From assembly GCA_035547915.1 (NCBI GenBank), contig DASZTS010000014.1:53134-117133 (forward strand): DNA of 64,000 bases, written 5' to 3'. A model generated the notes under the pieces. That model was not told the DNA's origin and made no database searches. It saw nothing but the letters and a program-made list of their open reading frames with translations. Positions 12,213 to 44,000 of the stretch are shown piece after piece; the stretch's first letter is position 1; the number at the start of each line of letters is the position of its first letter. The stretch comes from Pirellulales bacterium. Lineage in GTDB: Bacteria; Planctomycetota; Planctomycetia; Pirellulales; JAICIG01. The position numbers were made by a program, and so were the translations under genes.

Positions 12213-12247
12213 GTAGTACTGCCGATGTTTTTTTGTTCGTTCCTTAA

Positions 12248-12321
12248 CGGCGTGTAGGAAAGCCTGGGACTCCGCGTGCGTCGGGAGCACGAGATCGCCG
12301 GTTCAAATCCGGCCACGCCGA
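12248..12321 (+). tRNA. tRNA-Pro(CGG)
   Basis: C1:G72 acceptor CGGCGTG/CACGCCG, anticodon arm CGTGC-GTCGGGA-GCACG, T-arm GCCGG-TTCAAAT-CCGGC. A T-rich tract follows. The serine recombinase gene ends 18 bp downstream. Confidence 0.8.
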
Positions 12322-13793
12322 CTTTTTTCAGAGATGAGCCCTTCGGCGAGAACGTCGAAGGGCTTTCTCATTGTGGTGACGAGAGTTACGCCGTCGAGGC
12401 GGCAGTTCAAAAACACGATTTCGAGCAAACGACGCTTTGTCGCGTAGTCGGCGGTAAGCCATTGCTGCCGAAGCGTTTGCGAAAGTTCAAAAACTTTCGA
12501 CGCCAGCTCCGCCGTTTCGTCGTGCGACCGGTCGAGCGCGTCGAGTTGCAGCTTGATCGACGCCATTCGGTCACGCAACTCCGTGTGTTTGCGGGCGAAC
12601 GTCTCCTGGTCGATGTCATCCGACAGTCGCATGTTGAGCAACCGGTCCTGCTGCTGCACGAGCAACGTCTCCTGCCGCTGAAGCTCCGAACGCTGGGCCA
12701 TCGACTCGGTCTGCGCATCCCGCGTCTGTGAAGCAAGTACCAGCCGGAACCAATCGCGGACGCTCTCATCCTCGACCTGCATCTTGTCGAACACGGCCAG
12801 CACCTGCTGGTCGATGTCGGCTTCCGTGACACGCACGCGGGGATGCCCAGCCCTGTTGTAGTACGTGCAGCGGTAATAGATGTAGAAGCGGTCGCCGTTC
12901 TTCGACTTTTTCCTGACCTTCTCGCCGGTAATCGGATGGCCGCAATGGCCGCATTGGATGATGTCGCCGGCGTACGTGATCGCGTGCGACTGGTAAATGT
13001 GATCGCCAAGCAGCACCTGCACGCGGTCCCACGTCGCACGGTCGATCAGCGGCTCGTGTTTGCCGGGATACCACTCGCCCTTGTGGAGGATTTCGCCGAT
13101 GTAGGCCCGATCCTTCAGAACGTTGTGGACCATGCTGCGGGGAAACTTCGGCTGTGCATCCCGAAAGACCCGCCCATCAGCTTCGAGCCGCTCGACCAGG
13201 CCGTCGAGGGTCACGTTCTCGTAGGCATAGAGATGGAAGATGCGTTTGACGTTGGCGGCAGCCGGGGGATCAACCTCGATGATGCCCCGCCCATCCTTGC
13301 GGACGTTGCGATAGCCATACGGAGCCAGTCCGATAAACCAGCCTTCCCGCACGCGACGGGCCAGCCCCTCGCGGACATCCACTGATTGCTGCTCGGTGTA
13401 GAAGCTTGCCATGTTGGCAAGCGTCCGCCGCATCATGCGGCCGGCGGGCGTATTTTCCGTCGGCTGCGACACGGAGATGAACGGCAGGTCGTATTCCGAC
13501 TCCAGCCGTTCCAGCTCAACGTAATCGAAGAGATTGCGGGCAGCCCGGTCCACCTTGTAGAACAGCAAGCCGTCGAGGAACGGGGCGTTCTTCTTGGCGT
13601 ACGCGATCAACTCGCGGAAGGTTTTCCGCTCATCAGTCTTGCTCGCCGTCTCGGCGATCTTGAACAGCTTGGCGATTTCGCCACCGGCCTGCATGGCGTA
13701 TCGCTTGAGGGCTTCTTCCTGTACTTCGAGGCTGAATCCCTCGCGTTCCTGTTCCCGGCTGCTTACCCGTGCCAACGCGACAAACTGTTTCAT
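12303..13793 (-). CDS. Large serine recombinase (site-specific integrase)
   Basis: N-terminal resolvase catalytic domain (ALARVSSREQ...), recombinase domain and Zn-ribbon (CGHCGHP...YYRC), coiled-coil C-terminus. Lies immediately adjacent to the 3' end of tRNA-Pro(CGG). Confidence 0.9.
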   Translation of the reverse strand: MKQFVALARVSSREQEREGFSLEVQEEALKRYAMQAGGEIAKLFKIAETASKTDERKTFRELIAYAKKNAPFLDGLLFYKVDRAARNLFDYVELERLESEYDLPFISVSQPTENTPAGRMMRRTLANMASFYTEQQSVDVREGLARRVREGWFIGLAPYGYRNVRKDGRGIIEVDPPAAANVKRIFHLYAYENVTLDGLVERLEADGRVFRDAQPKFPRSMVHNVLKDRAYIGEILHKGEWYPGKHEPLIDRATWDRVQVLLGDHIYQSHAITYAGDIIQCGHCGHPITGEKVRKKSKNGDRFYIYYRCTYYNRAGHPRVRVTEADIDQQVLAVFDKMQVEDESVRDWFRLVLASQTRDAQTESMAQRSELQRQETLLVQQQDRLLNMRLSDDIDQETFARKHTELRDRMASIKLQLDALDRSHDETAELASKVFELSQTLRQQWLTADYATKRRLLEIVFLNCRLDGVTLVTTMRKPFDVLAEGLISEKSRRGRI

Positions 13794-15105: not shown

Positions 15106-15972
15106 CTATTGCTTCGCCGCACGTAAGTTAGTGGCAGCCGGTGCGGCATCGGTTCGAGTATGGTTCCAAGACGTATCGTCACGTGTGCCGCCGATCGAAC
15201 GCTGCTCGACCGATCGCCGGGAAACACGCGGTCTGCTAGCCTGGTCGGGCAATGCGCGACCAGCTTCTTTCGGATTGCCGTCCCGGTCGAATTCATCCAT
15301 CGTGTAGCGGAGCGCCTCACGTGACATCATTCGACCTTGCAACACGGCCCGGCGATGCGATCCGCTGTACTGGTGCATGAGTGTCAGGGTGCCGAGCGAC
15401 ACCAGGATTGCCGCCGCCAGCACAGCCACACACCCCCGTTTGATTCTGGCCTGTGCCCGCCGCCGGTCGTCTGCACTCGGCGGACCGAAGGATTCTTCGT
15501 AATAGCGGACCGTCGTCGTCCACAGCGGGGGAATGCCGGGCGTGAATATGATCGCGGTTCGCGGTGACAGTCCCTCTATTTCTTCGGGCTTCAGCAGCTT
15601 GCGGACCTGCTGGCCCCAACCGCTATTCTGGTTCTCCGAATAGCTGCTGCTTCCTTGCCCCGCCCCCGATGGCGACTGCACAGATTTCCCGGTGCTGCTG
15701 CCGCCGTTGTCCACCACGACCGTTTCCTCGCCCAGCCGGGTACTGACATACTGCGAAGTCTGTGGGTCGTTGACGCCGACGAACACTTGCGACGTGTTCG
15801 ATAAAATAGTTTGATCCTGGCCGTCGGGGCCTAGCTTCTTGAGCTGACCCAGCGATTGCAGCAGGTAAATCAGATGCACGCCGTAGCCTCGATATTTATC
15901 CTGCGCGTCATCGAGGGCGTCCATGTGACCCAGGCTGCCCGCTTCATCAAGGACAAAATGGACCTTTTTCAT
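15106..15972 (-). CDS. Type IV coupling protein TraG/VirD4, C-terminal fragment (Walker B onward)
   Basis: Begins MKKVHFVLDEAGSLG (Walker B DEAG), then LIYLLQSLGQL and TAIIFTPG. Overlaps the upstream fragment by 4 nt (ATGA). Confidence 0.7.
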   Translation of the reverse strand: MKKVHFVLDEAGSLGHMDALDDAQDKYRGYGVHLIYLLQSLGQLKKLGPDGQDQTILSNTSQVFVGVNDPQTSQYVSTRLGEETVVVDNGGSSTGKSVQSPSGAGQGSSSYSENQNSGWGQQVRKLLKPEEIEGLSPRTAIIFTPGIPPLWTTTVRYYEESFGPPSADDRRRAQARIKRGCVAVLAAAILVSLGTLTLMHQYSGSHRRAVLQGRMMSREALRYTMDEFDRDGNPKEAGRALPDQASRPRVSRRSVEQRSIGGTRDDTSWNHTRTDAAPAATNLRAAKQ

Positions 15973-17240
15973 TGCTGGAGTCCTCCTTCAACCACCGCCC
16001 GGAGCATCGCGCCAATCCACATCCGCATCAGGGCTGCTTGTGCCCGCAAATGCTCCGGCGGCAGGACCAGGTACACCGTCATCTTTCCGTTTCGTAGTCT
16101 GGCGGGATCGAAGCTGCTGGTCCGCGTATTCTCCGCGACGGCGATTGTGTCGAGGAATCGCAGGAAGCGGTTGGTTGTCGTGAGGACTGAGCTAAGTTCC
16201 TTGTCCTTGAAATGTGCGAGTTGGCCGCCTATTCGCCGAAGCATTCCGCCCCAGGCATCCGAGCCTTGCATCAATGCGATTGCGGCTTCCAGCTTTTTCG
16301 GATTTGAAAGAAGCGTGCGGACCGCCTGCAACGACCGGTCATCGCCGGGTTCTGCAAACTGCACGACCATCGAGCACAGCCCCGCTATAAGTGCTTCCGC
16401 ACTGTCTGGAAAATGCGGGTCTCTCTCTTGTCCAGTCCGAATCACAAATGCGTTGGCGAGATCAAAACATGCGTCGATCGCCAGCGGTGATTCCCTCTTG
16501 ATGAAATCCAGCGGATTGAAGGTGTCCGGCGTCTGCGTCACCACTTTGTAGGGATCGAGGATTCGCACCTCGTGCCCAAACACTTTCTCTCTGTGCGTCC
16601 CCGTTAAGGACGCTAATTCCCCTTTGACATCGACCACGACGCATGAATCGGGGCAAGTTTGCAGGAAGGGGATGACAAACGAAACGCCTTTGCCCACACC
16701 CGTGGGAGCGAACACCGCCGTATGTACGGCGTTTGGCAGCCTTACCAGCTTCTGTTCGGGCTGCCTGAACATTGCCAGAAACTCCTTGCACGCGGTTTCA
16801 TCATCAATCTGCCGGTCAAACAGGGCTTTGATTGCCGGACCGGCTCTCTGAGGGGAATCGGTGACTCGCCCAAGGATTAAGCCACTGTCGGCATCAAGCA
16901 TTCCGGCTCGCCTCAAATCCTCAGAGCCGGCCCAGCGGGCCGACCCCAACGTGGTCAACCGGTTTTTCTTCTTCCTGCAATGGACCACGATGACGACGGC
17001 CACGACCGTGAGCACGAAGTAGGGGTACATCCAAGCCGCGAGGCCACAAGGCAAAGCAATTGCCACGACGGCCACGACCAGCATTTGGCGATAGAAACTC
17101 ATTCCGCACCTCACTTCAAACTCGGATAAGCGGCCACATGCGGCGCTGCCTTCGGGTCCAGACCGTCCACGCTTGATTCTGCCGTGTCCTTCAGATGCTC
17201 TCGCATTGCAGACAGCCATGTCTCGGCCGCATTTCGCCAA
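15969..17240 (-). CDS. Type IV coupling protein TraG/VirD4, N-terminal fragment (TM + Walker A)
   Basis: N-terminal TM helices, Walker A APTGVGKGVSFVIP and TraG/VirD4-like all-alpha domain. Stops immediately before the Walker B encoded by the next ORF, so the gene is split (frameshift). Confidence 0.75.
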   Translation of the reverse strand: MAKCGRDMAVCNARASEGHGRIKRGRSGPEGSAACGRLSEFEVRCGMSFYRQMLVVAVVAIALPCGLAAWMYPYFVLTVVAVVIVVHCRKKKNRLTTLGSARWAGSEDLRRAGMLDADSGLILGRVTDSPQRAGPAIKALFDRQIDDETACKEFLAMFRQPEQKLVRLPNAVHTAVFAPTGVGKGVSFVIPFLQTCPDSCVVVDVKGELASLTGTHREKVFGHEVRILDPYKVVTQTPDTFNPLDFIKRESPLAIDACFDLANAFVIRTGQERDPHFPDSAEALIAGLCSMVVQFAEPGDDRSLQAVRTLLSNPKKLEAAIALMQGSDAWGGMLRRIGGQLAHFKDKELSSVLTTTNRFLRFLDTIAVAENTRTSSFDPARLRNGKMTVYLVLPPEHLRAQAALMRMWIGAMLRAVVEGGLQQ

Positions 17241-21524: not shown

Positions 21525-22715
21525 ATGCCTACGTGTCTTTCAGATGCCAAAGCCCGCAATGCCAAGCCGAGACCTAAGCCATACAAGATAGCGGACGGCG
21601 ATGGGTTATTCCTCGTAATCATGCCGTCGGGCAGTAAATACTGGCGGCTCAGGTATTTCTTCGGTGGCAAGGAAAAGCTCCTGGCGTTGGGGGTCTACCC
21701 TGACATCAATCTCGCCGATGCTCGTGAACGGCGTGCGGCGGCCCGAAAGGTTCTTGCAACTGGGAGCGATCCCGCTGAAGTAAAGAAAGAGGCCAAGCGG
21801 GTCGCGACGCTCAAAACGGCCAACGCCTTTGAGGTTGTAGCCAGGGAATGGTTTGCGAAACGCAAGCACGAATGGGCGGCCATCACCGCCGACCGAGCGC
21901 TTGGTCGTCTTGAGGCATATATTCTTCCCAAGCTGGGACAGAGACCGATTGCGGACATTACGCCACCTGAAGTCCTTGCTATGCTTCGAGCAGTTGAGGA
22001 CAGAGGCACGTTGGAGACTGCACATCGCCTCATGAACATTTGCAGCCAAATCTTCATGTATGCAATCGCCACCGGTCGAGCTGAACGTAACCCTGTTCCT
22101 GATCTGCGCGGTGCGTTAAAAACTCCTGTTGTGAAACATCGTTCATACCTAAAGGAAGCCGAACTACCAGAATACCTGAAGAAGCTCGGTGTCTACGATG
22201 GTAGTCCGCAAACGAAGCTGGCGCTGCGATTGCTCTTGCTGAGCTTCGTTCGCACGACCGAGTTGCGAGCAGCACAATGGAGCGAGATTGATTGGGACAA
22301 GGCGGAGTGGCGAGTTCCGGCCGAGCGAATGAAGATGAAGGAGTTGCATATCGTTCCATTGTCGAAGCAAGCACTCGCTGTTCTCAGGGAATTGCAGAAG
22401 CTGTCTGGCGATCGGATGTATGTTTTTCCGAATGAACATACCCCCAGCACCTTCATGAGCGAAAACACGATGCTGTACGCGCTTTATCGCATGGGTTATC
22501 ATTCCCGTGCTACCGGACACGGTTTTCGCAGCACGGCCAGTACGATCCTGAATGAACACGGGTTTCGGCCGGATGTAATCGAACGGCAGCTTGCCCATAG
22601 TGAGCAGAACTCCGTGCGGGCTGCCTACAATCATGCTCAATACCTGCCGGAACGCCGAAAGATGATGCAATGGTGGGCCGACTATCTTGATAAAGCTGCC
22701 AAGAAGAAGAAATAG
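21525..22715 (+). CDS. int: Tyrosine integrase (P4-type, DUF4102 arm-binding N-terminal domain)
   Basis: N-terminus KPYKIADGDGLFLVIMPSGSKYWRLRYFFGGKEKLLALGVYP. C-terminal catalytic R...HxxR...Y (HGFRSTASTILNE...AAYNHAQY). Confidence 0.9.
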   Translation: MPTCLSDAKARNAKPRPKPYKIADGDGLFLVIMPSGSKYWRLRYFFGGKEKLLALGVYPDINLADARERRAAARKVLATGSDPAEVKKEAKRVATLKTANAFEVVAREWFAKRKHEWAAITADRALGRLEAYILPKLGQRPIADITPPEVLAMLRAVEDRGTLETAHRLMNICSQIFMYAIATGRAERNPVPDLRGALKTPVVKHRSYLKEAELPEYLKKLGVYDGSPQTKLALRLLLLSFVRTTELRAAQWSEIDWDKAEWRVPAERMKMKELHIVPLSKQALAVLRELQKLSGDRMYVFPNEHTPSTFMSENTMLYALYRMGYHSRATGHGFRSTASTILNEHGFRPDVIERQLAHSEQNSVRAAYNHAQYLPERRKMMQWWADYLDKAAKKKK

Positions 22716-22979: not shown

Positions 22980-23529
22980 GACCATCCTCCATTCCGACTG
23001 TTCCCCGCAAGAACCCCGGAGCCTTCTTGCTAAGCCACTCCCTGATTGCCTGATGTGACTCAAATTCCGCGACTTCAATGCTGTCGATCGTCGGGCCGTT
23101 TTCGCCCACCCTGCTGATTTCGTCGTCACTCATTTCACGGATGAACAGCACTCGGTGACGCTGTAACCCGGCGTGCGTCAGGTTGATCGCTCCTTCGTTC
23201 AGTGGCTTGGCGAGGTTGCTGCCTCTGATGAGGACGACATACACGACGGCCGAATTGAACGTGAGCAGCAAGCCCTCCGAGGGATCGTATTTCCACGGCC
23301 CCATGATGGAGTATGGAAACCACATGCTCCCGCCGTTCCTGAAACGAAGCTCCAGCGCCGCCGACTGGTCCCGCAATCCCCGCAGGTAGCCAAATGCCAA
23401 CGACGACGCTTCTCCTTCGTCGGTGTCCGCGTCTTTCGACTGCAATATCCCACTCAGGCCCGGCGGGGCTCCCCCGCGTTTAAGGCGATCCTGTATGAGA
23501 CGATCCTGATGTGTGGTGTCATCCGGCAT
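22966..23529 (-). CDS. Hypothetical protein
   Basis: 187-aa ORF coupled (overlap) to the relaxase gene stop. No recognised motif. Confidence 0.45.
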   Translation of the reverse strand: MPDDTTHQDRLIQDRLKRGGAPPGLSGILQSKDADTDEGEASSLAFGYLRGLRDQSAALELRFRNGGSMWFPYSIMGPWKYDPSEGLLLTFNSAVVYVVLIRGSNLAKPLNEGAINLTHAGLQRHRVLFIREMSDDEISRVGENGPTIDSIEVAEFESHQAIREWLSKKAPGFLRGTVGMEDGHGRG

Positions 23530-26185
23530 GGTCCAATCCTCGATCCGGGGTTAAATCCTTCCCCGCTCCGAATACCGACAGTCCGCGTTCAATCGCCAGC
23601 CGCTTCAGCCGGTCTCGCAGATTCGCCTGCCGGGGTGCGGTTTCTGCAAGTTCGGTCGCCGACATCGGCTGGTCGGTCCGGCTGATTGCCTTGAGCAGCC
23701 CGAGATGGTCATCGGTGTACACCACCGCCTGCTCTTTGCCGCGTGTGAGCGCCACATAGGCGGTTCGCTGGTTGGTCGCGGGCAGCGATTCGCTGCCGAT
23801 GGCGACGAACACCTTATCCACCGTCGCCCCCTGACTGGCATGGCTCGTCGTGCAGTAGCCGTGCGTCAAATGCCCGAAATCCTTATCAATGATCCAGCCG
23901 TGATCGACGATGATGTCGCCACGTTTCGTAAAACCGTGGACGCTGAACAACGAGCCGTTGCTCAGGCGGTGCTTGCCGTCTCTGGTTTTGCCACCCGCCG
24001 TAATGCGGATACGGTCGCCTGCCGCCAGCGGCAACGCGACTGGCCGGTACACCTCGAACCGATCGGCAAGTTTCGTCGGTATTTCAGCCCCTTCGCTCAC
24101 CATCAGCCGCGATCCTTTGGTGTAGCCCGGTGAATTCTGCTGGAACTGGAGCAGGTAACCGGGCTCGTATTCGGTGGCGTCGGCTTTCTGTGCGTCGGTC
24201 AGGTGCGCCGGCACCCAGGCACCGACCATCCGCTCCTTGCCTAGCCGACCTTGACCGGCCAGCCCGGCACGGACTGCCGCCGTAACGCGGTCGCCTTCGA
24301 CGTGCGTTGGCGAAACGACCAGTGCCGACTTGTAATCTCCGTTCTTCTTCTTTTCGGAAGCGGCCGACAGGTACGCATCGGCAAGTGTCTGGTAGCGGTC
24401 TTTATCCGCTACCTGCCTGATCCAGCCGAGCTTATCGAGTTCATCGAATGCTTCCACGGCCCGGCCTTCGCTCAATAGTTTTGCAGCCTTTTTGTAATCG
24501 CCCTGCTGCCGCAGGATTTCAGTCATCTCAGCCACACGCAGGCCCGCATTGTCTTCGAGCAGCCGCAACGGTTCGCCTGCCGTCACACTCCGGTGCTGCC
24601 GGCGGTCGCCGACCAGCACCACGCGGGCCTTCAAGTCTTCGGCCACGTCAAACAGCTTGAGCATTTCCTTTGTCCCAAGCTGGCTGGCTTCATCCACCAG
24701 CAGCACGCCGCCCCGCGCAGATTCCTGCATCTCCTTGTCCTTGAGGAAGCGGGCCACGGTGTCGGCATCCTTGAACCCGGCTTCGTTTCGCAGCACTTCG
24801 CGGCTGGCTTTCACGGACTGCGCCATCGCCACCACCGGCTTGCCGGCTTCGGCCAGTGCCTCGCCGATTTCCTGTTCGAGCGTCGTCTTTCCGGTTCCGG
24901 CGACGCCGCGAATCAGAGTTACGCGGTCGCGGGAGCCCAGCACATGCCGCACCGCTGCTTTCTGGTCGTCGTTCAGCCATTCGCGGGAGAATGGACGCTC
25001 CGGGTTGCCAAGCGGCCGGAAGCGGCCGCGTCCATCGCGGGCGAATGCGATCAATTGCGATTCCATGTCCCGCATGAGCTTCGTGGTCGCCATCTTGCGG
25101 CCATCGACATCCTTGCGAATGAGCGGCCGGCTGGCGACTTCACGGGTTACGTCTTCCACGGTCACGCCGCCCAGGCCCCGCTTCAGGGCTTCTGTCACCA
25201 GCGCGCGTTCCGGCACCACCGCCTCACGCACGTAACTGTGCTCGATCGCATGGTCCACCGCTCCCGCTTCGCCATGCACCAGCCGGACATCGACACGCTC
25301 ACGGCGATGGACCGATGCCAGTACCTGCCGTTCCGGCTCCGTGAGTCGCCCGTTCCATTCCTTGCGAAGCTCTTCCCAGCCAAGCGGCTTGCCTTTCTTT
25401 TCACGGGTTTCGGCCCCAAGCTCGGCCTTGCGGTCAGGATTAGTGATCCCTTTTTCCGCTGCCACCTTCTCGATGAGCGTCGTTCGCCGCGAATAGCGTT
25501 GCAGCACATCCTTCGGGATTCCCGCGATCTCAAAGTCGTCGCGTTTCCGCTCGACGCCGAAGCCCAAATCCTGAAGCTTGTTGGCCAGCCGCACGCGGAA
25601 TGCCGCCTGAAAATACGGGGCATCCCGCTTCAGTTCGCGGAACTGGCCGGCTTTCCACCGTTCTTCCCGCTGGTCCCACGTGGTATTGAAGGCGAATACG
25701 TGGGCGTGCAACTGCGGATCGGGCACGCCATCGACCGGCCGCGTTGTCGTGTGGATGAATTCGGCCCACACCATGTTGCCGGTCGTGCGGTCCTTATCCT
25801 GCCCGGCCCTGCGGACGCGGGTTTTCATTTCGCTTTCAATCTCGGTCATCGTGTCATTGACCGCACCACGAAAGGCATCCATGATTCCCTGATCGCCGCT
25901 CATGGCGTAAAGCACCGACACCGACTTGGGCACGGAGAAGGTGAAGTCGTACCCGACCGTCCGATCCGTGCGCGTCCTGACCGTGAGTTGCTTACCGGTC
26001 CTTGGATCGAGATTGTCGCAGAGCCGCTCGAAGGAGAATTTGTCTACGGTGCCTTCCAGTCCCAGACGCGACGCGGCTTTTCCACCCCAGGAGCCGACAA
26101 TCTCCTGCCCTTCGCTGTAGTAATCTGCCGTGGTGTAGTATTGCTTGGCAGCCCCGGCACTATCCTGTTGCGTGATGCGGATCAT
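23519..26185 (-). CDS. MobF-family relaxase / TrwC-TraI-like relaxase-helicase
   Basis: N-terminal TrwC relaxase motifs (MIRITQQDSAGAAKQYYTTADYY, HAHVFAFN). C-terminal P-loop helicase (LIRGVAGTGKTT, VLVDEASQL, VGDRRQ). Confidence 0.9.
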   Translation of the reverse strand: MIRITQQDSAGAAKQYYTTADYYSEGQEIVGSWGGKAASRLGLEGTVDKFSFERLCDNLDPRTGKQLTVRTRTDRTVGYDFTFSVPKSVSVLYAMSGDQGIMDAFRGAVNDTMTEIESEMKTRVRRAGQDKDRTTGNMVWAEFIHTTTRPVDGVPDPQLHAHVFAFNTTWDQREERWKAGQFRELKRDAPYFQAAFRVRLANKLQDLGFGVERKRDDFEIAGIPKDVLQRYSRRTTLIEKVAAEKGITNPDRKAELGAETREKKGKPLGWEELRKEWNGRLTEPERQVLASVHRRERVDVRLVHGEAGAVDHAIEHSYVREAVVPERALVTEALKRGLGGVTVEDVTREVASRPLIRKDVDGRKMATTKLMRDMESQLIAFARDGRGRFRPLGNPERPFSREWLNDDQKAAVRHVLGSRDRVTLIRGVAGTGKTTLEQEIGEALAEAGKPVVAMAQSVKASREVLRNEAGFKDADTVARFLKDKEMQESARGGVLLVDEASQLGTKEMLKLFDVAEDLKARVVLVGDRRQHRSVTAGEPLRLLEDNAGLRVAEMTEILRQQGDYKKAAKLLSEGRAVEAFDELDKLGWIRQVADKDRYQTLADAYLSAASEKKKNGDYKSALVVSPTHVEGDRVTAAVRAGLAGQGRLGKERMVGAWVPAHLTDAQKADATEYEPGYLLQFQQNSPGYTKGSRLMVSEGAEIPTKLADRFEVYRPVALPLAAGDRIRITAGGKTRDGKHRLSNGSLFSVHGFTKRGDIIVDHGWIIDKDFGHLTHGYCTTSHASQGATVDKVFVAIGSESLPATNQRTAYVALTRGKEQAVVYTDDHLGLLKAISRTDQPMSATELAETAPRQANLRDRLKRLAIERGLSVFGAGKDLTPDRGLDHAG

Positions 26186-26260
26186 GCCTCATTTTACCGT
26201 ATCACATTAACGTTAACGAAATGTTAACGCTTTTGTGCTCCACCGCAGTTTTCCTTGCTT
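26186..26260. other. Candidate oriT (AT-rich region with reiterated TTAACG/GTTAAC palindromes immediately upstream of relaxase gene)
   Basis: Sequence ATTAACGTTAACGAAATGTTAACGC at 26206-26230 in an otherwise GC-rich context. Confidence 0.35.
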
Positions 26261-26320
26261 TGCGAGGATTCGATTTCCTAAATATCACCGGCGCGCCACC
26301 GCAACGTCACACCTACGCCG

Positions 26321-26405
26321 CGCGTCCGGTTACACAGCGTGCCGCTTACTTCAACGGCCTTTTGCGTCGCCGCTGGACACTTAGGTACGCCCACGTTCGC
26401 CTTTC
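26321..26405 (+). repeat. 85-bp direct repeat, copy 1 (flanks oxygenase-like cassette)
   Basis: GCGTCCGGTTACACAGCGTGCCGCTTACTTCAACGGCCTTTTGCGTCGCCGCTGGACACTTAGGTACGCCCACGTTCGC is ~92% identical to 27341-27425. Confidence 0.8.
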
Positions 26406-26583
26406 ACTGGATCACTCACTCCATCAGCACCATTACCCTTCTTACAGCACATACCATCCAGTTGAGATTCGTTCGCAACTCCGTCCATACACCGTGTCTT
26501 GCCGCTTTACTCTTTGCTGGCCCTCTGCTATAGCACCTTCGTTTGTCAATAATCCGTGCCACCTCATGCAAGCACACACGACT

Positions 26584-27330
26584 ATGGATCACATGAACTT
26601 TGCTCATGCTCGTTTCGATTACGAGCCTTATCCTATCTGCTATATCCCTGACTTTCTCAGCCCTGCGGACTACGAAGCGTTGGCCGACACCTATCCGTCG
26701 CTCGACAGCTTCAACCATAAGCCGATGCTTGGAGACAAGTATTCCCTCGCTGAGGGGAACAACGCCGACTTTTACTTCCGTTTCCTCCACGACAATCCAT
26801 GCTGGCTGGAATTCTATAACCGCATAAAAAGCAAGGCGTTTGTCGAAGAAGTCCTCACCCTATTGAAGAACAATTACATCGACTTGGGAATCGGTGACTT
26901 TAGACTTACACGCAGTACCAGTGGGGGTTGGAGTGATTTGTTGGCCCGTGCTTTTACAACGAATACCCTACGCACGCGATTTGAGTTTTCAATCATGTCG
27001 GCCGACGGCGGCCACATCCTGCCGCATACCGACGCTGAAGCAAAGCTTGTGACCATCGTTGTATCGTTCATCAGGGGTGGAGAATGGCAAAGCGAATGGG
27101 GAGGGGGCACGGACGTCTTGACACCCGCGGACCCGACCAGCGTGTTTGCCAGAGCGAATCGTCGTTTGCCTTTTGACAAAATGCGGGTTTCTAGGACATT
27201 ACCGTTCGCCCCAAATCAGGCCGTGCTCTTTGTCAAGACATACAACTCCTGGCATGCTGTTTCGCCAATGCACGGCCCGCCTAATGCGGTCAGAAAGACC
27301 GTCACGATCAACATCGAACGCCTGATGTGA
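26584..27330 (+). CDS. Putative 2OG-Fe(II) oxygenase-fold protein
   Basis: HxD...H-like arrangement (ILPHTDAEAK ... SWHAVSP). Lower GC than its surroundings. The upstream part of the listed ORF 26221-27330 covers the repeat and is probably not coding. Confidence 0.45.
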   Translation: MDHMNFAHARFDYEPYPICYIPDFLSPADYEALADTYPSLDSFNHKPMLGDKYSLAEGNNADFYFRFLHDNPCWLEFYNRIKSKAFVEEVLTLLKNNYIDLGIGDFRLTRSTSGGWSDLLARAFTTNTLRTRFEFSIMSADGGHILPHTDAEAKLVTIVVSFIRGGEWQSEWGGGTDVLTPADPTSVFARANRRLPFDKMRVSRTLPFAPNQAVLFVKTYNSWHAVSPMHGPPNAVRKTVTINIERLM

Positions 27331-27340
27331 CGCCTACCAG

Positions 27341-27425
27341 CGCACTGTCGATGTCCGCCATGCGTCCGGTTACAAATCGTGCCGCTTTCTTCAACGGCCT
27401 TTTGCGTCGCCGCTGGACACTTTGG
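27341..27425 (+). repeat. 85-bp direct repeat, copy 2
   Basis: See copy 1. Confidence 0.8.
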
Positions 27426-27698
27426 TACGTCCACGTTCGCTTCGGATCGAACCACTGTCAGCGTTTCATCGCGTGAGCAGTTTCTTCCACGCCCATGAAT
27501 TCCTGCTGGCTGCATGTAATGTAAACGATGACGCTTTCTGCGTTGCCGACGCCTTTCCGGTTTCCCATTGTCGTTACTGAGCTTGCAGGACTGGATTTCA
27601 CCATGCTGGTCACATGGCGTCATGCCTTCTTCGGGCTTTAAGCCGTCCGGGACACACGCGGCCTCACTTCGGGACTCTTAAAGCCGCCGCCGGTCCGC

Positions 27699-27749
27699 GC
27701 AAGCAGAAAATCGGTTCCCCCTGAAGGTCTCCCCCAATTTTCCGCTTGC
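27699..27749 (+). promoter_or_regulatory. Conserved hairpin element, copy A (12-bp stem, 27-nt loop TCGGTTCCCCCTGAAGGTCTCCCCCAA)
   Basis: Stem GCAAGCAGAAAA / TTTTCCGCTTGC. Lies ~100 bp upstream of the ATG at 27848. Second copy at 31693-31743 has compensatory stem changes. Confidence 0.6.
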
Positions 27750-27847
27750 CCGGTACGCATGCGCCCCGGACTCAAGCGGCTTTTTCTGTGCAGTCCCGTA
27801 AGGCCGCGATGGTCGCGGCCGGAAACTTAAATCAGAAGGAGAACACC

Positions 27848-28108
27848 ATGTCACAACCAGCACACAAAATCCGTACCGGCGTCCTGCAAGTCACGATCTG
27901 GAGAAACCACGGCGAAAGAGGCAACTGGTACAGCGTCATACCGAGCCGCAGCTACAAGCAGGAGGACGCATGGAAGGAAACCGACAGTCTCGGTTTCGAT
28001 GACCTGCTGACAATGGCCAAACTATTTGACCTCGCTCACACGTGGATCATGCACCAGCAGCAGGCCGACGCCAAGGGCCGTAAGGAAGCGGCGAAGGCTG
28101 CCGCCTGA
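27848..28108 (+). CDS. Hypothetical protein
   Basis: RBS AAGGAGA then ATG. 86 aa. Confidence 0.45.
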   Translation: MSQPAHKIRTGVLQVTIWRNHGERGNWYSVIPSRSYKQEDAWKETDSLGFDDLLTMAKLFDLAHTWIMHQQQADAKGRKEAAKAAA

Positions 28109-28176
28109 GCCGGACGCCGGCGGGCTACGGCCCGCCGGTTCCATTTTAAATCAACCATTCAGAAAGGAATGTCAAA

Positions 28177-31585: not shown

Positions 31586-31692
31586 AGGCACAGCGATCGC
31601 TGTTTGATTCCTTCCCCGACGCACACTCTTCCGCCACGGCTGCCCCGCCTGGGGCTTTCAATGACGGCACGCTAATCAGCCCGCCGGGCCGT

Positions 31693-31743
31693 GCAAGCGG
31701 AATTCCGGTTCCCCCTGAAGGTCTCCCCCAAAATTCCGCTGGC
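31693..31743 (+). promoter_or_regulatory. Conserved hairpin element, copy B
   Basis: Stem GCAAGCGGAATT / AATTCCGCTGGC with the same 27-nt loop as copy A. Lies 97 bp upstream of the GTG at 31840. Confidence 0.6.
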
Positions 31744-31839
31744 ACGGTCGCTGCGCGAGCGGAGCCCCGGACCGGGGCTGATTCTTCCGCGAGCCGTCAG
31801 GCCCCAGTTGCGGGGCCGGTAACTAGAGGAGACCGCGAC

Positions 31840-37470: not shown

Positions 37471-37474
<4 letters not shown>
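37211..37474 (+). CDS. Small HTH transcriptional regulator (possible controller protein of the Type I R-M operon)
   Basis: Winged-helix/HTH segment [22 protein letters not shown]. Stop overlaps the hsdM start. Confidence 0.55.
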
Positions 37475-39061
<1,587 letters not shown>

Positions 39062-39072
<11 letters not shown>

Positions 39073-40396
39073 CTGGCGCACGTGCAAAATCGGAGATGTC
39101 TTCACACTGACTCCAGGCTTTGCCTTCAAAAGCAGCGATTTCATCGACCATGGCACGCCGGTATTGAAAATCAAAAATGTAAAGGCAGGCGAAGTCGTAT
39201 TCAATGACTTGAGCTACGTGGCTGACAGTTTTGTGCAGAGTCGCAGCAACTTCCTTGTTCAACATGGCGATATTCTGATTTCCTTGTCAGGGAACCGTAT
39301 CGACGGCTCAAAAGATACTTGGGTAGGAAAAGTTGCCCAGTTTCGACGAAATGGCAACTACCTTCTCAATCAGCGCGTTGGTATCCTGCGGCCGAAAACT
39401 GATGTAACGATTGACACGCGTTGCAGCGCGTACTTGCTGGGTTCAGAACAATACCAACAACTCTTCATCTCAATAGCAACGAGTTCAGGTGGTCAAGCCA
39501 ATCTGTCATCAGCACAGGTGCTGAATGCAGAAATTAGGCTGCCACCGTTCGCTGAGCAGCAGGCTATCGCATGTATTCTTGGGGCATTGGACGACAAGAT
39601 CGCGTTAAACCATCGGCGGAACAGCGGGCTCGAAGCAATCGCGCGCGCGATATTTCAGAGTTGGTTCGTGGACTTCGCTCCAGTGCAAGCGAAAGCAGAA
39701 GGCCGCAAGCCTGCCGGATTGCCGCCGGAACTCATGGCACTGTTTCCCACCTCGTTTGAGGAAAGCGAACTCGGAGAAATTCCGAAGGGATGGCATATCG
39801 GGACGGTTGGGGATGTCGTTGAGATCAACGGTTGGACATTGGGAAAACGGGATGAACTCGACGAGATCAACTACATCGAAATCAGTGAAGTCATGCGAGG
39901 AGAGGTTGCCAATATCACTCGCTATGTTCGTGGAGAAGAGCCCGGACGAGCGAGAAGACGATTGCGACATGGCGACACGGCAATTTCGACCGTCCGACCA
40001 GATCGAGGCGCATATTTTCTGTGTCTTGAGCCCCCGACAAGCCTGATAGCCTCAACCGGCTTCGCGGTTCTCACTGCGAGGGGTGGGCATTGGGCTTTCG
40101 TGCATGTACTCACGACAAGGAACGAATTCGGCCAAGAACTCGGTCGGCTGGCGGATGGTGGCGCGTACCCTGCCGTTCGTCCAGAATTAATCTCGGCTCG
40201 GCCAGTCGTGATCCCCGCAAATGGTAGTGTTTTATCTGCGTTTGAAAAACTCACTCAGCCACTTTTCTTGAAGGTCGAAGCTGAAAGAAAGGAATCCCGC
40301 ACCCTCGCAGCCCTGCGAGATACGCTCTTGCCGAAGCTGATTAGCGGAGAGCTACGTGTGCCGGACGCCGAGCGGATCGTTGGGATGGTGGTATGA
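39062..40396 (+). CDS. hsdS: Type I R-M specificity subunit HsdS (two TRDs)
   Basis: Duplicated TRD and conserved-region architecture. Overlaps hsdM. Confidence 0.88.
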
Positions 40397-41043
40397 GCAC
40401 ACCGCTCAAGCCCTGGACCAGGGGACCATTTGAACTGTTGGTCCATGCCGAGTTGCACCGCCTTGACGGTGACGACTTTGATCGCCGTATGGCGATGATT
40501 AGCTTCGACAACGCAATCGAAGTTGCGATCACAACCTACCTCAACCTAAATCCAATTCAACGCAACAAACGACAGTATCCGAAAGCGGATGTGGAGAAGT
40601 GGCTGACGAATTTTCACACCAAAATCGACTTTTTCATGATCGAACTTGACACCCGTGGCCTTGCAGTTCTGCACGAGCAGGCGGACATCGTTTGGTATCA
40701 CGATTCCAGGAACGAGCAGTATCACGGTGGAAAGCCATCGGTCCCATTGATCGCCGAGCTGGAGACTATTCGTGGGATTGCAATCTGGGTATTTAGCGTG
40801 CTGTTTGAGATACCAGATACGGAGCCAAGGATTGGCGAGGCCATCGCGTTGAGACGCCCACAAACGATGGAAGGGAGAACGCCGGAATATGATGGCTTGA
40901 TCGACGATACGTATGGTACTTGCTCGGTCGCAGGCGACCAATACAAGACGAGCGATGTGCTTCATGCTCTTGATGCAGCGGCTTATGCAGAACTCGGTGA
41001 GGCTCTCAAGCAGCAGCTTGGGCAGGAAGGAAATCCGTCATGA
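40393..41043 (+). CDS. Hypothetical protein embedded between hsdS and hsdR
   Basis: 216-aa ORF with ATGA overlaps at both ends (40393-40396 and 41040-41043). Locally lower GC. No motif recognised. Confidence 0.55.
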
Positions 41044-44000
41044 ACCTGAATAACTTTACCGAATCCGTTGTTGAGGAAGCAACACTCGCGTGGTTGGAAT
41101 CTCTTGGTTACTCCATCGCCCACGGCCCGGACCTGATCGAAACCGAGCGCGGCGGCGAATATGGCCGAGTCGTCCTCGAAGATCGCTTGCGCCAGGCGCT
41201 CCAGCGTCTTAACCCGAAACTGCCCGCAAGCGCTCTCGATGAAGCGTTCCGCAATCTGACGCGGCCTGACTCGCCCTCGCTAGTTGGCGGCAATCATGCC
41301 ATGCACCGGCTGCTGGTCGAGGGTGTGCCGGTGGAAGTGCAGCGCCCTGATGGCACCCTTGGCGGCGACATCGTGCGGGTTTTCGATTATGAGAATCCCA
41401 ACAACAACGACTTTCTTGCGGTGAACCAATTCACGATTGTGGAAAACAAGATTGAACGTCGGCCAGACGTTCTGCTGTTCATTAACGGCTTGCCGCTTGC
41501 TGTGATCGAATTGAAAAACGCTGCTGACGAGAACGCCACCCTTTGGAACGCCTTCAACCAGCTACAGACCTACAAGCAGCAAATCCCGTCCCTGTTCACC
41601 TGGAACGCAGCTCTGCTGGTCTCAGACGGCGTGCAAGCTCGCATCGGCACGCTGACGGCAGACCGCGAGCGGTTTATGCCGTGGAGGACTATCGCTGGCG
41701 AAGACTTGGCCCCGGCGTCGATGCCCGAACTGCAAGTGGTGTTGGAAGGCGTGTTCGAGAAGACGCGGTTTCTGCAACTGCTGCGGCACTTCATTGTGTT
41801 TGAGGACGAAGGCGGCGGTAAGCTCACCAAGAAAATGGCCGGCTATCACCAGTTCCATGCAGTGAACCTCGCCCTGGTAGCGACCATCAAAGCCACCGGT
41901 ATGGGCGGCGACCGTCGCGTCGGGGTGGTCTGGCATACTCAAGGTTCGGGCAAGAGCCTGACGATGGCGTTCTACGCCGGGCGGGTGGTTCTCGAACCGG
42001 CGATGAAGAATCCCACCATCGTCGTCATCACCGACCGCAACGACCTGGACGACCAGCTCTTCGGCACGTTCGCCCGTTGCAACGAACTCCTCCGGCAAAA
42101 GCCTGTGCAGGCCGAGAGCCGCGAGCAACTCCGCACTCTGCTGAAGACCGATTCGGGCGGCGTGATTTTCACCACCGTTCACAAGTTTTTTCCAACCGTT
42201 GAGGAAGCGAAGTTCCCGCTGCTGTCTGAACGGCGAAACATCGTCGTGATGGCGGATGAGGCTCATCGCAGCCAGTACGACTTCGTGGACGGTTTCGCGG
42301 CCCACATGCGGAACGCCTTGCCGGGAGCATCGTTTATCGGATTCACCGGAACGCCCATCGAACAGGCCGACGCCAACACGCGGGCCGTCTTTGGGAATTA
42401 TGTCAGCGTTTACGACATCGAGCGTGCCGTGAAAGACGGCGCAACGGTGCCGATCTACTACGAAAGCCGGCTTGCGAAGCTCAAACTCGACGAGTCGAAA
42501 AAGCCCAAGCTCGACGAGGAATTCGAGGAGGCGACCGAGGGTGAGGAAGAAAGCGCCAAAGCCAAACTGAAAACAAAATGGGCCGCCCTGGAATCCCTTG
42601 TCGGGGCGAAGGAACGCATCAAGCTGGTGGCAGCCGATATCGTGGCTCACTGGGAGAAACGGCTGGAGGCAATGGATGGAAAGGCGATGATCGTCTGCAT
42701 GAGCCGACGCATCTGCATTGATCTTTACAACGAGTTGGTCGCACTCCGCCCGGACTGGCACCACGGCGACGACGATAAGGGCGTGTTGAAGATCATCATG
42801 ACCGGCTCGGCGTCCGATCCTACCGAGTGGCAACCGCATATCCGCTCGAAGTCCCGCCGCGAGGAATTGGCAAAGCGGTTCAAGACCCCGCAAGACCCAT
42901 TCAAAGTGGTGATCGTCCGCGATATGTGGCTCACAGGCTTCGACGCTCCGTGCCTGCATACGATGTACGCCGATAAGCCAATGCGCGGACACGGTCTGAT
43001 GCAGGCCATCGCCCGCGTCAACCGCGTGTTCAAGGACAAGCCCGGCGGCCTGATCGTCGATTACCTCGGCCTTGCCCATGAACTGAAACAGGCGCTCGCC
43101 ACCTACACCGAAAGTGGCGGCCACGGGCAGACAGCGATTGACCAGGAGGAAGCCGTTGCGCTGATGCGCGAGAAACACGAAGTCTGTGCAGCCTTCTTCC
43201 ACGGTTTCGACTACTCAGGCTTTGCGGCCGGCAACGCCATGCAGAAACTCGGCATTCTGCCCGCAGCACAGGAACACATCCTGAAGCAGGAGGACGGCAA
43301 GAACCGTTTCGTTAAGGCGGTAGTCGAGTTATCCAAGGCATTCGCACTGGCGGTACCCGCCGACGACGCGATGGCCGTCGTGGACGACGTGGCGTTTTTC
43401 CAAGCGGTCAAATCCGTGTTGTCCAAGTCCATCGGCGACCAAATGCGCGACCCGGGCGACGTTGACCACGCGATCCGCCAGATCGTGTCGCGGGCCGTGT
43501 CGTCTGACGAAGTGATCGACATTTTCGCCGCAGCCGGGCTGAAGAAGCCGGACATTTCCGTCTTATCCGATGACTTCCTCGCCGAGGTGCGCGGGATGCC
43601 GCAACGGAATCTAGCCGTCGAAATGTTGCGAAAGCTGCTCCAAGGCGAGATCAAGCAGCGGTCGAAGAGAAACGTTGTTCAGGCCCGGTCGTTCCTAGAG
43701 ATGCTAGAGAAGTCCATCACCCGCTACCAGAACCGAGCCATCGAGACGGCGGCAGTGATCGAGGAATTGATCGGGCTGGCGAAGGACATGCGCGAGGCCC
43801 AGCAGCGCGGTGAACAACTCGGCCTAACCGACGACGAGATTGCGTTCTACGACGCCCTGGAAGTCAACGACAGTGCCGTGAAGGTACTCGGCGACGATGT
43901 GTTGAAACTGATCGCCCAGGATTTGGTGAAAGCGGTGCGGAACAACCTTACCATCGACTGGACTGTTCGGGAGAACGTGCGGGCTAACCTGCGTGTCATC

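What the first reader, a model, noticed from the sequence alone, without database searches (positions are those of the whole stretch)
26321..27425. Oxygenase-like gene cassette bracketed by 85-bp direct repeats
Two ~92% identical 85-bp repeats (26321-26405 and 27341-27425) flank a ~0.9 kb lower-GC segment encoding a 2OG-Fe(II)-oxygenase-fold protein. The arrangement resembles a mobile cassette or the scar of a site-specific insertion. The repeats may be recombination sites or a duplicated regulatory or terminator element.
Basis: seen in the sequence. Interest (0 to 1): 0.5.

Follow-up and report, generated by a model that had tools for sequence, protein, structure and literature searches.

The report
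Cargo gene flanked by duplicated backbone leader
A foreign 2OG-Fe(II) oxygenase gene has been inserted into the variable cargo slot next to the relaxase gene of a planctomycete mobile element, and the two 85-bp repeats are a duplicated piece of the element's own non-coding DNA, most likely left by homologous recombination; this is an ordinary way for mobile elements to pick up cargo, not a new cassette system.

Summary
The repeats are real: 85 nt, 78/85 identical, at 26316-26400 and 27356-27440. They flank a 51.5%-GC segment in a ~60%-GC element, and that segment holds one intact 248-aa 2OG-Fe(II) oxygenase.

The window is a Pirellulales (Planctomycetes) contig carrying a ~38-kb integrated mobilisable element. 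The repeat (R) is a non-coding backbone segment. It lies ~105 nt upstream of the MobF relaxase gene, between an oriT-like hairpin and the structured leader of a highly conserved 86-aa gene.

Related elements show:
- an empty site with one R (L008);
- the same cassette between two R copies (L088, L002);
- R plus ~290 nt duplicated around a different 6-kb cargo (L004);
- many other cargos at this slot, mostly without duplications.

R does not fold like attC, there is no IntI, and R is not dispersed. Between two cassette-bearing elements the cassette is 95% identical but the R cores only 63-67%. The cores follow the resident backbone, and only the cassette-proximal edges of R travel with the gene. 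That pattern fits Campbell-type ("ends-in") homologous recombination with gene conversion, not a fixed-core site-specific recombinase.

Verdict: real, explained, modest interest.

The parts
23519..26185 (-). MobF/TrwC-type relaxase-helicase gene (888 aa), left backbone flank
   Evidence: PF08751 TrwC 243 bits plus AAA_30. 100% identical to a protein named 'MobF family relaxase [Pirellulales bacterium]'.
26211..26247 (+). oriT-like core (inferred): inverted repeat CGTTAAC-GAAAT-GTTAACG followed by the conserved block TGTGCTCCACCGCAG
   Evidence: The best-conserved non-coding stretch among relatives with 78-95% identical relaxases. The resemblance to the R388 IR2+nic layout is from memory plus PMC3264647. 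The nic site is not mapped.
26290..26400 (+). R copy 1 (core 26316-26400; weaker left extension from ~26290). Its left part and core are of the resident backbone type; its last ~18 nt are of the type linked to the cassette.
   Evidence: It is syntenic with the single R of L008, L005/6, L092 and L093.
26401..26583 (+). C/T-rich 183-nt untranslated leader of the cassette
   Evidence: Conserved with the gene in L002 and L088. GC skew about -0.3. No similarity to the backbone.
26584..27330 (+). 2OG-Fe(II) oxygenase gene (248 aa), the only cargo gene
   Evidence: PF13640. 517 homologues with E <= 0.001; one cluster at 96% identity, the next best 58%. Catalytic residues invariant. Predicted fold matches PolD/PasI, TM 0.63-0.78.
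27332..27440 (+). R copy 2 (core 27356-27440). Its degenerate left extension (CCAGCGCA...) is linked to the cassette; its core and right end are of the resident type.
27441..27646 (+). Backbone leader spacer D, between R and the structured element E
   Evidence: Colinear with L008 and L004. In L004 most of it is duplicated together with R.
27647..27847 (+). Element E: conserved ~180-nt long hairpin directly upstream of the 86-aa gene (right backbone flank)
   Evidence: Found by nhmmer in essentially all of the related loci fetched, 2-4 copies per long locus. Fold z = -4.6 as DNA on the - strand and -3.0 as RNA on the + strand. Covariation supports it.
27848..28108 (+). Highly conserved 86-aa gene, right anchor of the cargo slot
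   Evidence: 91-99% aa identity even where the relaxase is only 78-82% identical. 135 relatives in JGI metagenomes.

Best explanation
R is not a cassette-specific recombination site. It is a ~85-110-bp non-coding segment of the backbone of a planctomycete integrative mobilisable element. In the ancestral state it occurs once, about 105 nt upstream of the relaxase gene, as the last conserved block before a hypervariable cargo slot. That slot ends at the structured leader (E) of a conserved 86-aa gene.

The 930-bp low-GC unit (leader plus oxygenase gene) entered this slot on a DNA molecule that carried its own copy of R. That molecule was either a circle of about 1040 bp or a fragment broken within R. 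It recombined with the resident R by homologous, RecA-type 'Campbell' or 'ends-in' recombination, which necessarily leaves the insert between two direct copies of R.

Gap repair or gene conversion copied the resident sequence into the cores of both copies. Only the R edges next to the insert therefore keep the donor's variants. The reverse crossover between the two copies would delete the gene precisely and release the 1040-bp circle.

Shown: the repeat, the empty site, recurrence of the same cassette, different cargos at the same slot, and the mosaic variant pattern. Inferred: the recombination pathway, the circular or broken intermediate, the oriT assignment, and the view that this slot lies at the start of the leading region. 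The gene itself is an intact Fe(II)/2-oxoglutarate hydroxylase. Its relatives sit in glycan and methyltransferase clusters. Its role on the element is unknown.
For: (1) Empty site. L008 has relaxase-A-R-D-E-86aa in 619 nt. It is colinear with the window once the cassette is removed (82% identity over 617 aligned nt, 12 gap columns) and has one R.

(2) R is a backbone sequence. nhmmer finds it only at the syntenic position next to the relaxase gene (window, L004, L005/6, L008, L092, L093; weak in L076, L043, L012, L028, L016). Second copies occur only in the window, L004 and L002.

(3) The same cassette between R copies elsewhere. The L088 unitig has a cassette interior 100% identical to the window's. 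It starts with the last 30 nt and ends with the first 30 nt of the 34-nt stretch shared by c1 and c2, which is what a k=31 graph gives at a repeat. L002 behaves the same way, with a 35-nt shared stretch.

(4) Discordant divergence. The 930-nt cassette interior is 94.95% identical between the window and L002, but the R core-left block is only 27-29/43 identical. L002's core matches the other allele (L004_c2, 36/43), while c1 and c2 within the window match each other at 39/42. The 18 nt of c1 next to the insert are 18/18 identical between the window and L002. A single fixed crossover cannot give resident-type cores in both copies. Ends-in recombination with gap repair, or conversion, can.

(5) A hotspot, not a site. 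The relaxase-to-86aa distance ranges from 398 to more than 9600 nt. The contents include PIN/Phd, ankyrin and Sel1 proteins, IS1595/IS3/ISL3, a P4-type integrase, ParB-like plus ArdC, and a YhcG nuclease. Junctions lie at different points of the leader.

(6) Duplications of other leader segments flank other cargos: R+D' of about 240-375 nt in L004, 93 nt and 160 nt of E in L076 and L087, and 41 nt in L044. Most occupied sites have no duplication. That is the expected mix of single and double crossovers.

(7) The lower GC marks the insert as foreign.
Against: Only two independent cassette-bearing backbones are available (window/L088 and L002), and L002 and L088 are ~1-kb unitigs that stop inside R. 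Their outer junctions are therefore unseen, and a free circle alongside an empty site would give the same assembly graph. The a/b allele argument rests on a handful of R sequences. No reads were available to show excision or the circular form. The element encodes a tyrosine integrase, a serine recombinase and a TrwC-type relaxase, and TrwC-type relaxases can catalyse site-specific recombination (PMC3264647). None of these can be excluded as a catalyst, with later gene conversion blurring the crossover point. R's own function is unknown.
Confidence: 0.6

Rival explanations
1. R is an attachment site for a dedicated site-specific enzyme of the element: the P4-type tyrosine integrase at 21525-22715, the serine recombinase at 12303-13793, or the TrwC-type relaxase acting on a nic-like sequence. 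The cassette is a small satellite that integrates into and excises from R by that enzyme.
For: All three enzymes are encoded in the element. The left extension of R contains GCGCCACCGCAA, which resembles the conserved nic-like block GTGCTCCACCGCAG 56 nt upstream. TrwC integrates DNA into short oriT-like targets (PMC3264647). Cargo junctions in the window, L092 and L005 lie at or within about 70 nt of the 3' end of R. The R copy sits directly after the stop codon of the ORF.
Against: The R cores follow the resident backbone in both copies, while the cassette is 95% conserved. One fixed crossover cannot produce that. Duplications flanking other cargos involve other leader segments and other lengths. 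Most occupied sites have no repeat. R has no similarity to the element ends or to the tRNA genes. CCASCGCA is a short GC-rich word expected several times by chance in 64 kb.
Confidence: 0.15
2. The repeat exists because R is a functional regulatory module (promoter, terminator or leader). Each transcription unit in this region needs one, so the gene was recruited together with, or selected to keep, its own copy.
For: R precedes co-oriented genes in both the window and L004. The neighbouring element E is repeated upstream of several co-oriented genes. R contains a short hairpin followed by CTTTTG, and the L004_c1 allele has a different hairpin at the same place.
Against: The hairpin and T-run are not conserved in the type-b, L005 or L008 alleles. 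Folding is no better than for shuffled sequence. No sigma-70-like promoter or terminator hit falls inside R, though that scan is uninformative for Planctomycetes. R is found only next to the relaxase gene, never upstream of other genes of the element. This idea explains retention of the repeat, not its origin, and it is compatible with the best explanation.
Confidence: 0.12
3. An integron-like gene cassette, with R as an attC site.
For: Repeats of about 110 bp flank a single ORF, one of them directly 3' of it. The R ends GCAACGT...ACGTTCGC can pair over 7 bp.
Against: No IntI: the only tyrosine integrase scores 305.8 bits on the integrase-domain model NF007246 (below its 434-bit cutoff) and only 38 bits against the Xer/integron-integrase model (cutoff 220). 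There is no end-to-end imperfect palindrome, and z-scores are about 0 on both strands. The boundary GTTCGCC does not fit GTTRRRY. The left repeat is ordinary backbone, present once in empty sites. There is no cassette array.
Confidence: 0.02
4. A transposon or MITE insertion with target-site duplication, or an assembly chimera joined at a repeat.
For: Direct repeats flank a segment of different GC content in a metagenome-assembled contig.
Against: There are no terminal inverted repeats and no transposase. 85-110 bp is far beyond known target duplications. The cassette-linked variants at both inner edges of R show that the insert carried its own R. Independent assemblies from two other samples reproduce both inner junctions.
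Confidence: 0.04

Closest known systems
Variable-region hotspots of integrative conjugative/mobilisable elements (e.g. HS1-HS5 of SXT/R391 ICEs; Wozniak et al. 2009, PMC2791158)
   Same: A conserved backbone with one intergenic slot that holds different accessory genes in related elements. An empty state exists. The cargo differs in composition from the backbone. Exchange is attributed to recombination between related elements.
   Different: This is a different, undescribed planctomycete element family (MobF relaxase, split coupling protein, no mating-pore genes seen in the window). Here the insert is bracketed by a duplicated backbone segment, which is not typical of SXT hotspots. The recombination pathway has not been tested.
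Campbell-type / 'ends-in' homologous integration of a circular or gapped DNA carrying one region of homology
   Same: The product is homology-insert-homology in direct orientation. The reverse crossover gives precise loss. Gap repair makes both copies resemble the resident sequence, while the insert-proximal edges keep donor variants, which is the pattern seen.
   Different: The process is known mainly from genetics with suicide plasmids. Here it is inferred from sequence alone, with only about 85-110 bp of homology.
Integron gene cassettes / attC (including VCR-type arrays)
   Same: A single ORF with a ~110-bp repeat immediately 3' of it. The flanking repeats are alike, as in chromosomal arrays.
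   Different: No IntI, no attI, no attC palindrome or core sites, no array. The left repeat is native backbone.
Leading-region islands of conjugative plasmids with repeated Frpo/ssi single-strand promoters (Samuel et al. 2024, PMC11541004)
   Same: The slot lies between a putative oriT and co-oriented early-type genes. ArdC and ParB-like genes occur there in relatives. A long-hairpin non-coding element (E) recurs upstream of those genes.
   Different: The nic site and the transferred strand are unknown. If the nic is where I infer it, the genes point away from it, which does not fit transcription from the entering strand. No -35/-10 was recognised in E. The oxygenase is not preceded by E and has no known anti-defence role.
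TrwC (R388) relaxase-mediated oriT-specific recombination/integration (Agundez et al. 2012, PMC3264647)
   Same: The adjacent gene encodes a TrwC-family relaxase. The repeats lie within about 60-200 nt of the oriT-like core.
   Different: R does not contain the hairpin-plus-conserved-block motif. The variant pattern does not fit a fixed strand-transfer point.

Membership tests
Integron gene cassette (attC) | IntI-type tyrosine integrase with attI next to the cassettes | tested here: not met
   The only tyrosine integrase (21525-22715) scores 305.8 bits on the integrase-domain model NF007246 (cutoff 434) and 38 bits on the Xer/integron-integrase model (cutoff 220). It lies 3.5 kb away, beyond the relaxase gene.
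Integron gene cassette (attC) | attC: imperfect palindrome R''-L''...L'-R' that folds as single-stranded DNA, with RYYYAAC / GTTRRRY core sites at the cassette boundary | tested here: not met
   DNA folds of both copies on both strands give z = -0.07, +0.91, +0.57 and -0.67, with no end-to-end stem (RNA folds). The boundary reads GTTCGCC.
IS / transposon / MITE insertion | Terminal inverted repeats, short target-site duplication, transposase (or derivation from one) | tested here: not met
   No inverted repeats at the insert ends. The only credible ORF is the oxygenase. The duplication is 85-110 bp.
Site-specific integrative element (attL/attR) | One fixed crossover point within a short identical core, so that each hybrid site is half element and half target | tested here: inconclusive
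   The cores of both copies are of the resident type in two different backbones, and only the insert-proximal edges are linked to the cassette. This argues against a fixed point, but it rests on two alleles, and later gene conversion could mimic it.
ICE/IME variable-region hotspot cargo | The same backbone interval carries unrelated genes in related elements, and an empty state exists | tested here: met
   Interval of 398 to more than 9600 nt with at least 10 different contents. Empty with a single R in L008.
ICE/IME variable-region hotspot cargo | The host is a mobile element: relaxase, coupling protein, integrase/recombinase, integration in or near tRNA genes | tested here: met
   TrwC relaxase. 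T4CP in two ORFs, ParB, serine recombinase. Tyrosine integrase. The element splits a 38-gene tRNA array. No mating-pore genes were seen, so it is probably mobilisable rather than self-transmissible.
2OG-Fe(II) oxygenase superfamily (PF13640 branch) | Double-stranded beta-helix fold with an HxD...H iron triad and a basic residue that binds 2-oxoglutarate | tested here: met
   PF13640 30.5 bits, cutoff 27. H148, D150, H224 and R237 are invariant in 17 sequences. Model pLDDT 88.5. Best PDB matches are PolD 9blq and PasI 9ei6, E about 5e-11, then Tpa1/OGFOD1/PHD2.
Leading-region (early-entry) gene island | Position directly 3' of the nic site on the transferred strand; genes oriented for transcription from that strand | not testable with these tools
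   Only an oriT-like hairpin plus a conserved block was found. The nic site and the transferred strand need experiment. ArdC and ParB-like genes in the homologous slot of L087 are suggestive.

The most novel reading that the evidence does not exclude
In this widespread planctomycete element family, the non-coding leader blocks next to the relaxase gene (R, D, and the ~180-nt covarying hairpin E, which recurs 2-4 times per element) might act as portable adapters. Cargo genes would travel with a copy of a leader block and be captured or lost by recombination between these blocks, possibly on the entering single strand during conjugation. That would amount to an integrase-free cassette system for the first-entering region, with E as a new Frpo-like single-strand promoter or RNA leader.
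Probability: 0.12. Interest if true: 0.65.

Novelty: new member of a known kind. Interest (0 to 1): 0.3.

Why it matters
In itself this is one more example of how mobile elements acquire cargo at a permissive slot. Its use is mostly negative: it shows that 85-bp direct repeats around a lone gene need not signal an integron-like or other site-specific cassette system. The mosaic of repeat variants can separate homologous from site-specific insertion. The wider context may be worth more. It defines a large, undescribed family of planctomycete mobilisable elements (more than 130 loci in public metagenomes) with a hypervariable slot beside the relaxase gene. It also turns up a conserved, strongly covarying long-hairpin element upstream of the element's conserved early-type genes, and that element has no Rfam family.

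Tried and rejected
(1) An exact 25-mer of the R core in 185,579 representative genomes gave one hit, inside a glutathione-transferase-like ORF of Pandoraea.

(2) A degenerate 24-mer from the 3' part of R gave 0 hits in viral contigs and 0 in JGI metagenomes. R is too divergent for exact-pattern scans.

(3) blastn of 26100-27900 against PLSDB plasmids gave only a 107-nt, 79% match on a Singulisphaera acidiphila conjugative plasmid. It covers the 3' end of E and the start of the 86-aa gene. Nothing matched R or the oxygenase.

(4) Rfam gave nothing for R, D or E at gathering threshold or at E <= 1. There was only a weak Xoo2 hit at 28076-28144.

(5) An exact-sequence look-up of the window's oxygenase failed, although the protein is in the collection as HVX10263.1.

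(6) The sigma-70 promoter and terminator scan gave no promoter, and no terminator inside R. The scan is not informative for Planctomycetes.

(7) R as a tRNA fragment or a copy of the element ends: no match longer than 12-14 nt anywhere in the window.

(8) R as coding sequence: rejected, because of the 1-nt indel between alleles and non-synonymous differences.

(9) A long target-site duplication made on insertion: rejected, because variants shared by the window and L002 at both inner edges of R show that the insert carried its own R ends.

(10) A link between the oxygenase and the 5-hmdU DNA kinase/MazG gene at 44591-46555 (a DNA hypermodification idea): considered but not supported. The gene lies 17 kb away, the oxygenase is not of the TET/JBP type, and its relatives sit in glycan clusters.
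Full report
OBSERVATION. The window contains a direct repeat of 85 nt at 26316-26400 and 27356-27440, 78/85 identical, spacing 1040. A 61-nt degenerate core pattern matches only these two places in 64 kb and none of 100 shuffles. Weaker similarity continues about 25-30 nt to the left of both copies. I call the repeat R, its copies c1 and c2, and the 930 nt between them (26401-27330) U. U has 51.5% GC, against 61.8% for the gene on its left and 60% for the DNA on its right.

U holds one credible ORF, 26584-27330. It encodes a 248-aa protein that matches PF13640. It keeps the invariant H148-x-D150, H224 and R237 of its family. It is predicted with pLDDT 88.5 to adopt the 2OG-oxygenase fold. The best solved matches are the sugar-nucleoside enzymes PolD and PasI, followed by prolyl hydroxylases. 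R is non-coding: its alleles differ by a 1-nt indel, and the c1/c2 differences would be non-synonymous.

CONTEXT. The gene to the left (23519-26185, - strand) is a MobF/TrwC relaxase-helicase. It is 100% identical to a protein of a Pirellulales metagenome-assembled genome. The window reads as follows:
- planctomycete chromosomal genes up to 10.6 kb;
- ten tRNA genes at 11.1-12.3 kb;
- a large serine recombinase, a coupling protein in two ORFs, ParB, a P4-type tyrosine integrase, and the relaxase;
- R-U-R, then a conserved 86-aa gene and small ORFs;
- a 1949-aa methylase/SNF2 protein, a type I restriction system, a 5-hmdU-kinase/MazG gene, and an M78 peptidase;
- 28 more tRNA genes at 50.7-55.9 kb, then chromosomal genes again.

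So a ~38-kb integrated element splits a 38-gene tRNA array. I saw no mating-pore genes, so it is probably mobilisable rather than self-transmissible.

Directly upstream of the relaxase start there is an inverted repeat, CGTTAAC-GAAAT-GTTAACG (26211-26229). It is followed by TGTGCTCCACCGCAG. This is the most conserved non-coding stretch among relatives. By analogy with R388 (partly from memory; PMC3264647) I take it as the oriT core. That is an inference.

WHAT R IS. I fetched relatives through the relaxase and through the 86-aa protein. That protein stays 91-99% identical where the relaxase is only 78-82% identical, and it recovered 80 loci from JGI metagenomes.

The distance from the relaxase start to the 86-aa gene start ranges from 398 nt to more than 9.6 kb. 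The shortest class is an uninterrupted leader.

A profile of R finds it only at this syntenic place, about 105 nt from the relaxase start. It is strong in L004, L005/6, L008 and L092, and weak in L093, L076, L043, L012, L028 and L016. Second copies occur only in the window, L004 and L002. Nothing else in the window resembles R, including the tRNA genes and the element ends. R is therefore a piece of backbone, not a dispersed or cassette-borne site.

THE SLOT IS A HOTSPOT. At the same interval, relatives carry:
- a PIN/Phd toxin-antitoxin pair (L005/6);
- ankyrin genes with an IS3 (L007, L092);
- 6 kb with Sel1, DUF6471 and an IS1595 transposase (L004);
- a 568-aa repeat protein (L093);
- the P4-type integrase in either orientation (eight loci);
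- ParB-like plus ArdC (L087);
- a YhcG nuclease and an ISL3 transposase (L048), and others.

Junctions lie at different points: at the 3' end of R (window, L092), 72 nt after it (L005), about 290 nt after it (L004), or inside element E (L076, L087).

Some cargos are flanked by duplicated leader segments. These are R plus about 290 nt in L004 (75-80% identical copies), 93 and 160 nt of E in L076 and L087, and 41 nt in L044. Most have none.

THE SAME CASSETTE ELSEWHERE. The closest oxygenase cluster (96% aa identity; all other homologues 58% or less) comes from two ~1-kb Logan unitigs. L088 matches U at 100%. It begins with the last 30 nt and ends with the first 30 nt of the 34-nt stretch that is identical in c1 and c2. 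A k=31 de Bruijn graph produces exactly this when a unique segment lies between two copies of a repeat. L002 behaves the same way with a 35-nt shared stretch, and its U is 94.95% identical to the window's. So R-U-R, or a circle of U plus R, exists in two further samples.

MECHANISM. The informative result is a discordance. Between the window and L002, U is 95% identical. The left core of R is only 27-29/43 identical. L002's R belongs to another allele, shared with L004_c2 (36/43) and resembling L008. The window's two copies agree with each other at 39/42 and with L004_c1.

Only the R edges that touch U travel with the cassette. The last 18 nt of c1 are 18/18 identical between the window and L002, including a C at R position 74 that every cassette-free R lacks. 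The left extension of c2 has CCAGCGCA in both, against CCACCGCA in the backbones.

Three things follow:
- The insert carried its own R. That rules out a target duplication.
- The cores of both copies have the resident sequence. A single reciprocal exchange at one fixed point would leave one core of donor type, so that is ruled out too.
- The pattern is what 'ends-in' (Campbell-type) homologous integration of a circle or a fragment broken within R gives, with gap repair or conversion from the resident copy.

Together with the variable junctions and the variable duplicated segments at other cargos, this favours RecA-type recombination between related elements over a dedicated recombinase (confidence 0.6). 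The reverse crossover would delete the gene precisely.

The limits are plain. There are only two independent backbones, the unitigs stop inside R, no reads were available, and gene conversion after a site-specific event cannot be excluded.

RIVALS. attC/integron:
- no IntI;
- both copies on both strands fold no better than shuffled sequence, z from -0.67 to +0.91;
- the boundary GTTCGCC does not fit GTTRRRY;
- the left repeat is plain backbone.

Transposon or MITE: no inverted repeats and no transposase. Assembly artefact: both inner junctions recur in independent assemblies.

Site-specific action of the tyrosine integrase, the serine recombinase or the TrwC-type relaxase remains possible (0.15). 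The left extension of R resembles the nic-like block, and TrwC can integrate DNA at short targets. But this does not explain the mosaic.

R as a regulatory module (0.12) could explain why the copy is kept. Its hairpin and T-run are not conserved among alleles, though, and R is never found upstream of other genes.

THE GENE. Homologues at 50-58% identity sit in clusters of glycosyltransferases, several SAM methyltransferases, ABC exporters and paralogous oxygenases (L003, L089), or alone (Roseibium). The best structural matches act on sugar nucleosides. A carbohydrate-type substrate is plausible. What the gene does on the mobile element is unknown. No defence or anti-defence family was tested for it.

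COMPARISON AND NOVELTY. Functionally this is cargo in a variable-region hotspot of an integrative element, as in SXT/R391 ICEs (PMC2791158). The insertion has the topology of Campbell integration. It is not an integron cassette. It resembles leading-region islands (PMC11541004) in its position next to a putative oriT and in the ArdC and ParB-like genes of relatives, but the nic site and the transferred strand are unknown. I rate it a new member of a known kind, interest 0.3.

SIDE FINDING. Directly upstream of the 86-aa gene lies element E (27647-27847), with a second copy at 31641-31831. It was found in essentially all of the related loci fetched, with 2-4 co-oriented copies in long loci. It folds into a ~180-nt hairpin, z = -4.6 as DNA on the - strand and -3.0 as RNA on the + strand.

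Covariation on 64 sequences supports the hairpin:
- 81% of cells are paired, against 33-48% when the partners are slid;
- 38 of 56 pairs show compensatory changes;
- 0 of 500 shuffles reach the observed score.

A 5' segment and both arms of the 3' terminal hairpin co-vary three ways, which suggests alternative pairings. Rfam has no match. In L087 a copy of E precedes a ParB-like/ArdC operon. This is a candidate new structured leader or single-strand promoter. It is probably the most interesting thing near the finding, and I followed it only partly.

Noticed in passing
window 27647-27847 and 31641-31831; one or more copies in nearly all related loci L004-L087: Element E is a conserved ~180-nt long hairpin directly upstream of the 86-aa gene and of other co-oriented genes, 2-4 copies per element. 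Covariation is strong: 38/56 pairs have compensatory changes, and 81% of cells are paired against 33-48% in slid controls. Alternative pairing involves a 5' segment and both arms of the terminal hairpin. There is no Rfam family. It is a candidate RNA leader or Frpo-like single-strand promoter.
   Followed up: partly
window 11097-12322 and 50691-55861: 38 tRNA genes, all on the + strand, covering nearly all amino acids. They form one large array split by the ~38-kb mobile element. The serine recombinase ORF (12303-13793, -) abuts tRNA-Pro(cgg), which suggests integration into or beside that tRNA gene.
   Followed up: no
window 15106-15972 and 15969-17240 (- strand); L004 16995-18664: The type IV coupling protein (T4SS-DNA_transf/TrwB/TraG-D_C) is split into two ORFs overlapping by 4 nt, in both the window and L004. 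L007 has a single 591-aa gene. This is either a conserved split or a frameshift.
   Followed up: no
window 26211-26247; same place in L004-L008, L012, L016, L018, L092, L093: An inverted repeat GTTAAC-N5-7-GTTAAC followed about 8 nt later by TGTGCTCC(A/G)CCGCAG is the most conserved non-coding block next to the relaxase start. It is a likely oriT core. A related block, GCGCCAC(C/T)G(C/A)AA(C/T)GTCAC, lies 56 nt downstream and forms the left edge of R.
   Followed up: partly
L020, L027, L033, L044, L046, L048, L079, L087 (interval between the relaxase gene and the 86-aa gene): A P4-type tyrosine integrase (Arm-DNA-bind_3, Phage_int_M, Phage_integrase) sits inside the variable slot in eight loci, in either orientation. 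In the window, L004 and L007 the homologous integrase is on the other side of the relaxase gene.
   Followed up: no
window 44591-46555 (- strand) and 37471-44111 (+ strand): The element carries a 5-hmdU DNA kinase / MazG fusion (PF18723, PF18722), a marker of thymidine hypermodification pathways. Next to it is a complete type I restriction-modification system (HsdM, HsdS, HsdR).
   Followed up: no
window 27848-28108; NC_019895.1 (Singulisphaera acidiphila plasmid) 2558-2661: The 86-aa protein has no Pfam or NCBIfam match but is extremely conserved: 91-99% identical across elements whose relaxases are only 78-82% identical, and at least 135 relatives in JGI metagenomes. It also occurs on a conjugative planctomycete plasmid.
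   Followed up: partly
L089 5258-9221; L003 186-9513: The closest non-mobile homologues of the oxygenase lie in clusters with up to three paralogous PF13640 oxygenases, four or five SAM methyltransferases, GT1/GT2/GT8 glycosyltransferases and ABC exporters. These are presumably loci for a heavily modified glycan.
   Followed up: no
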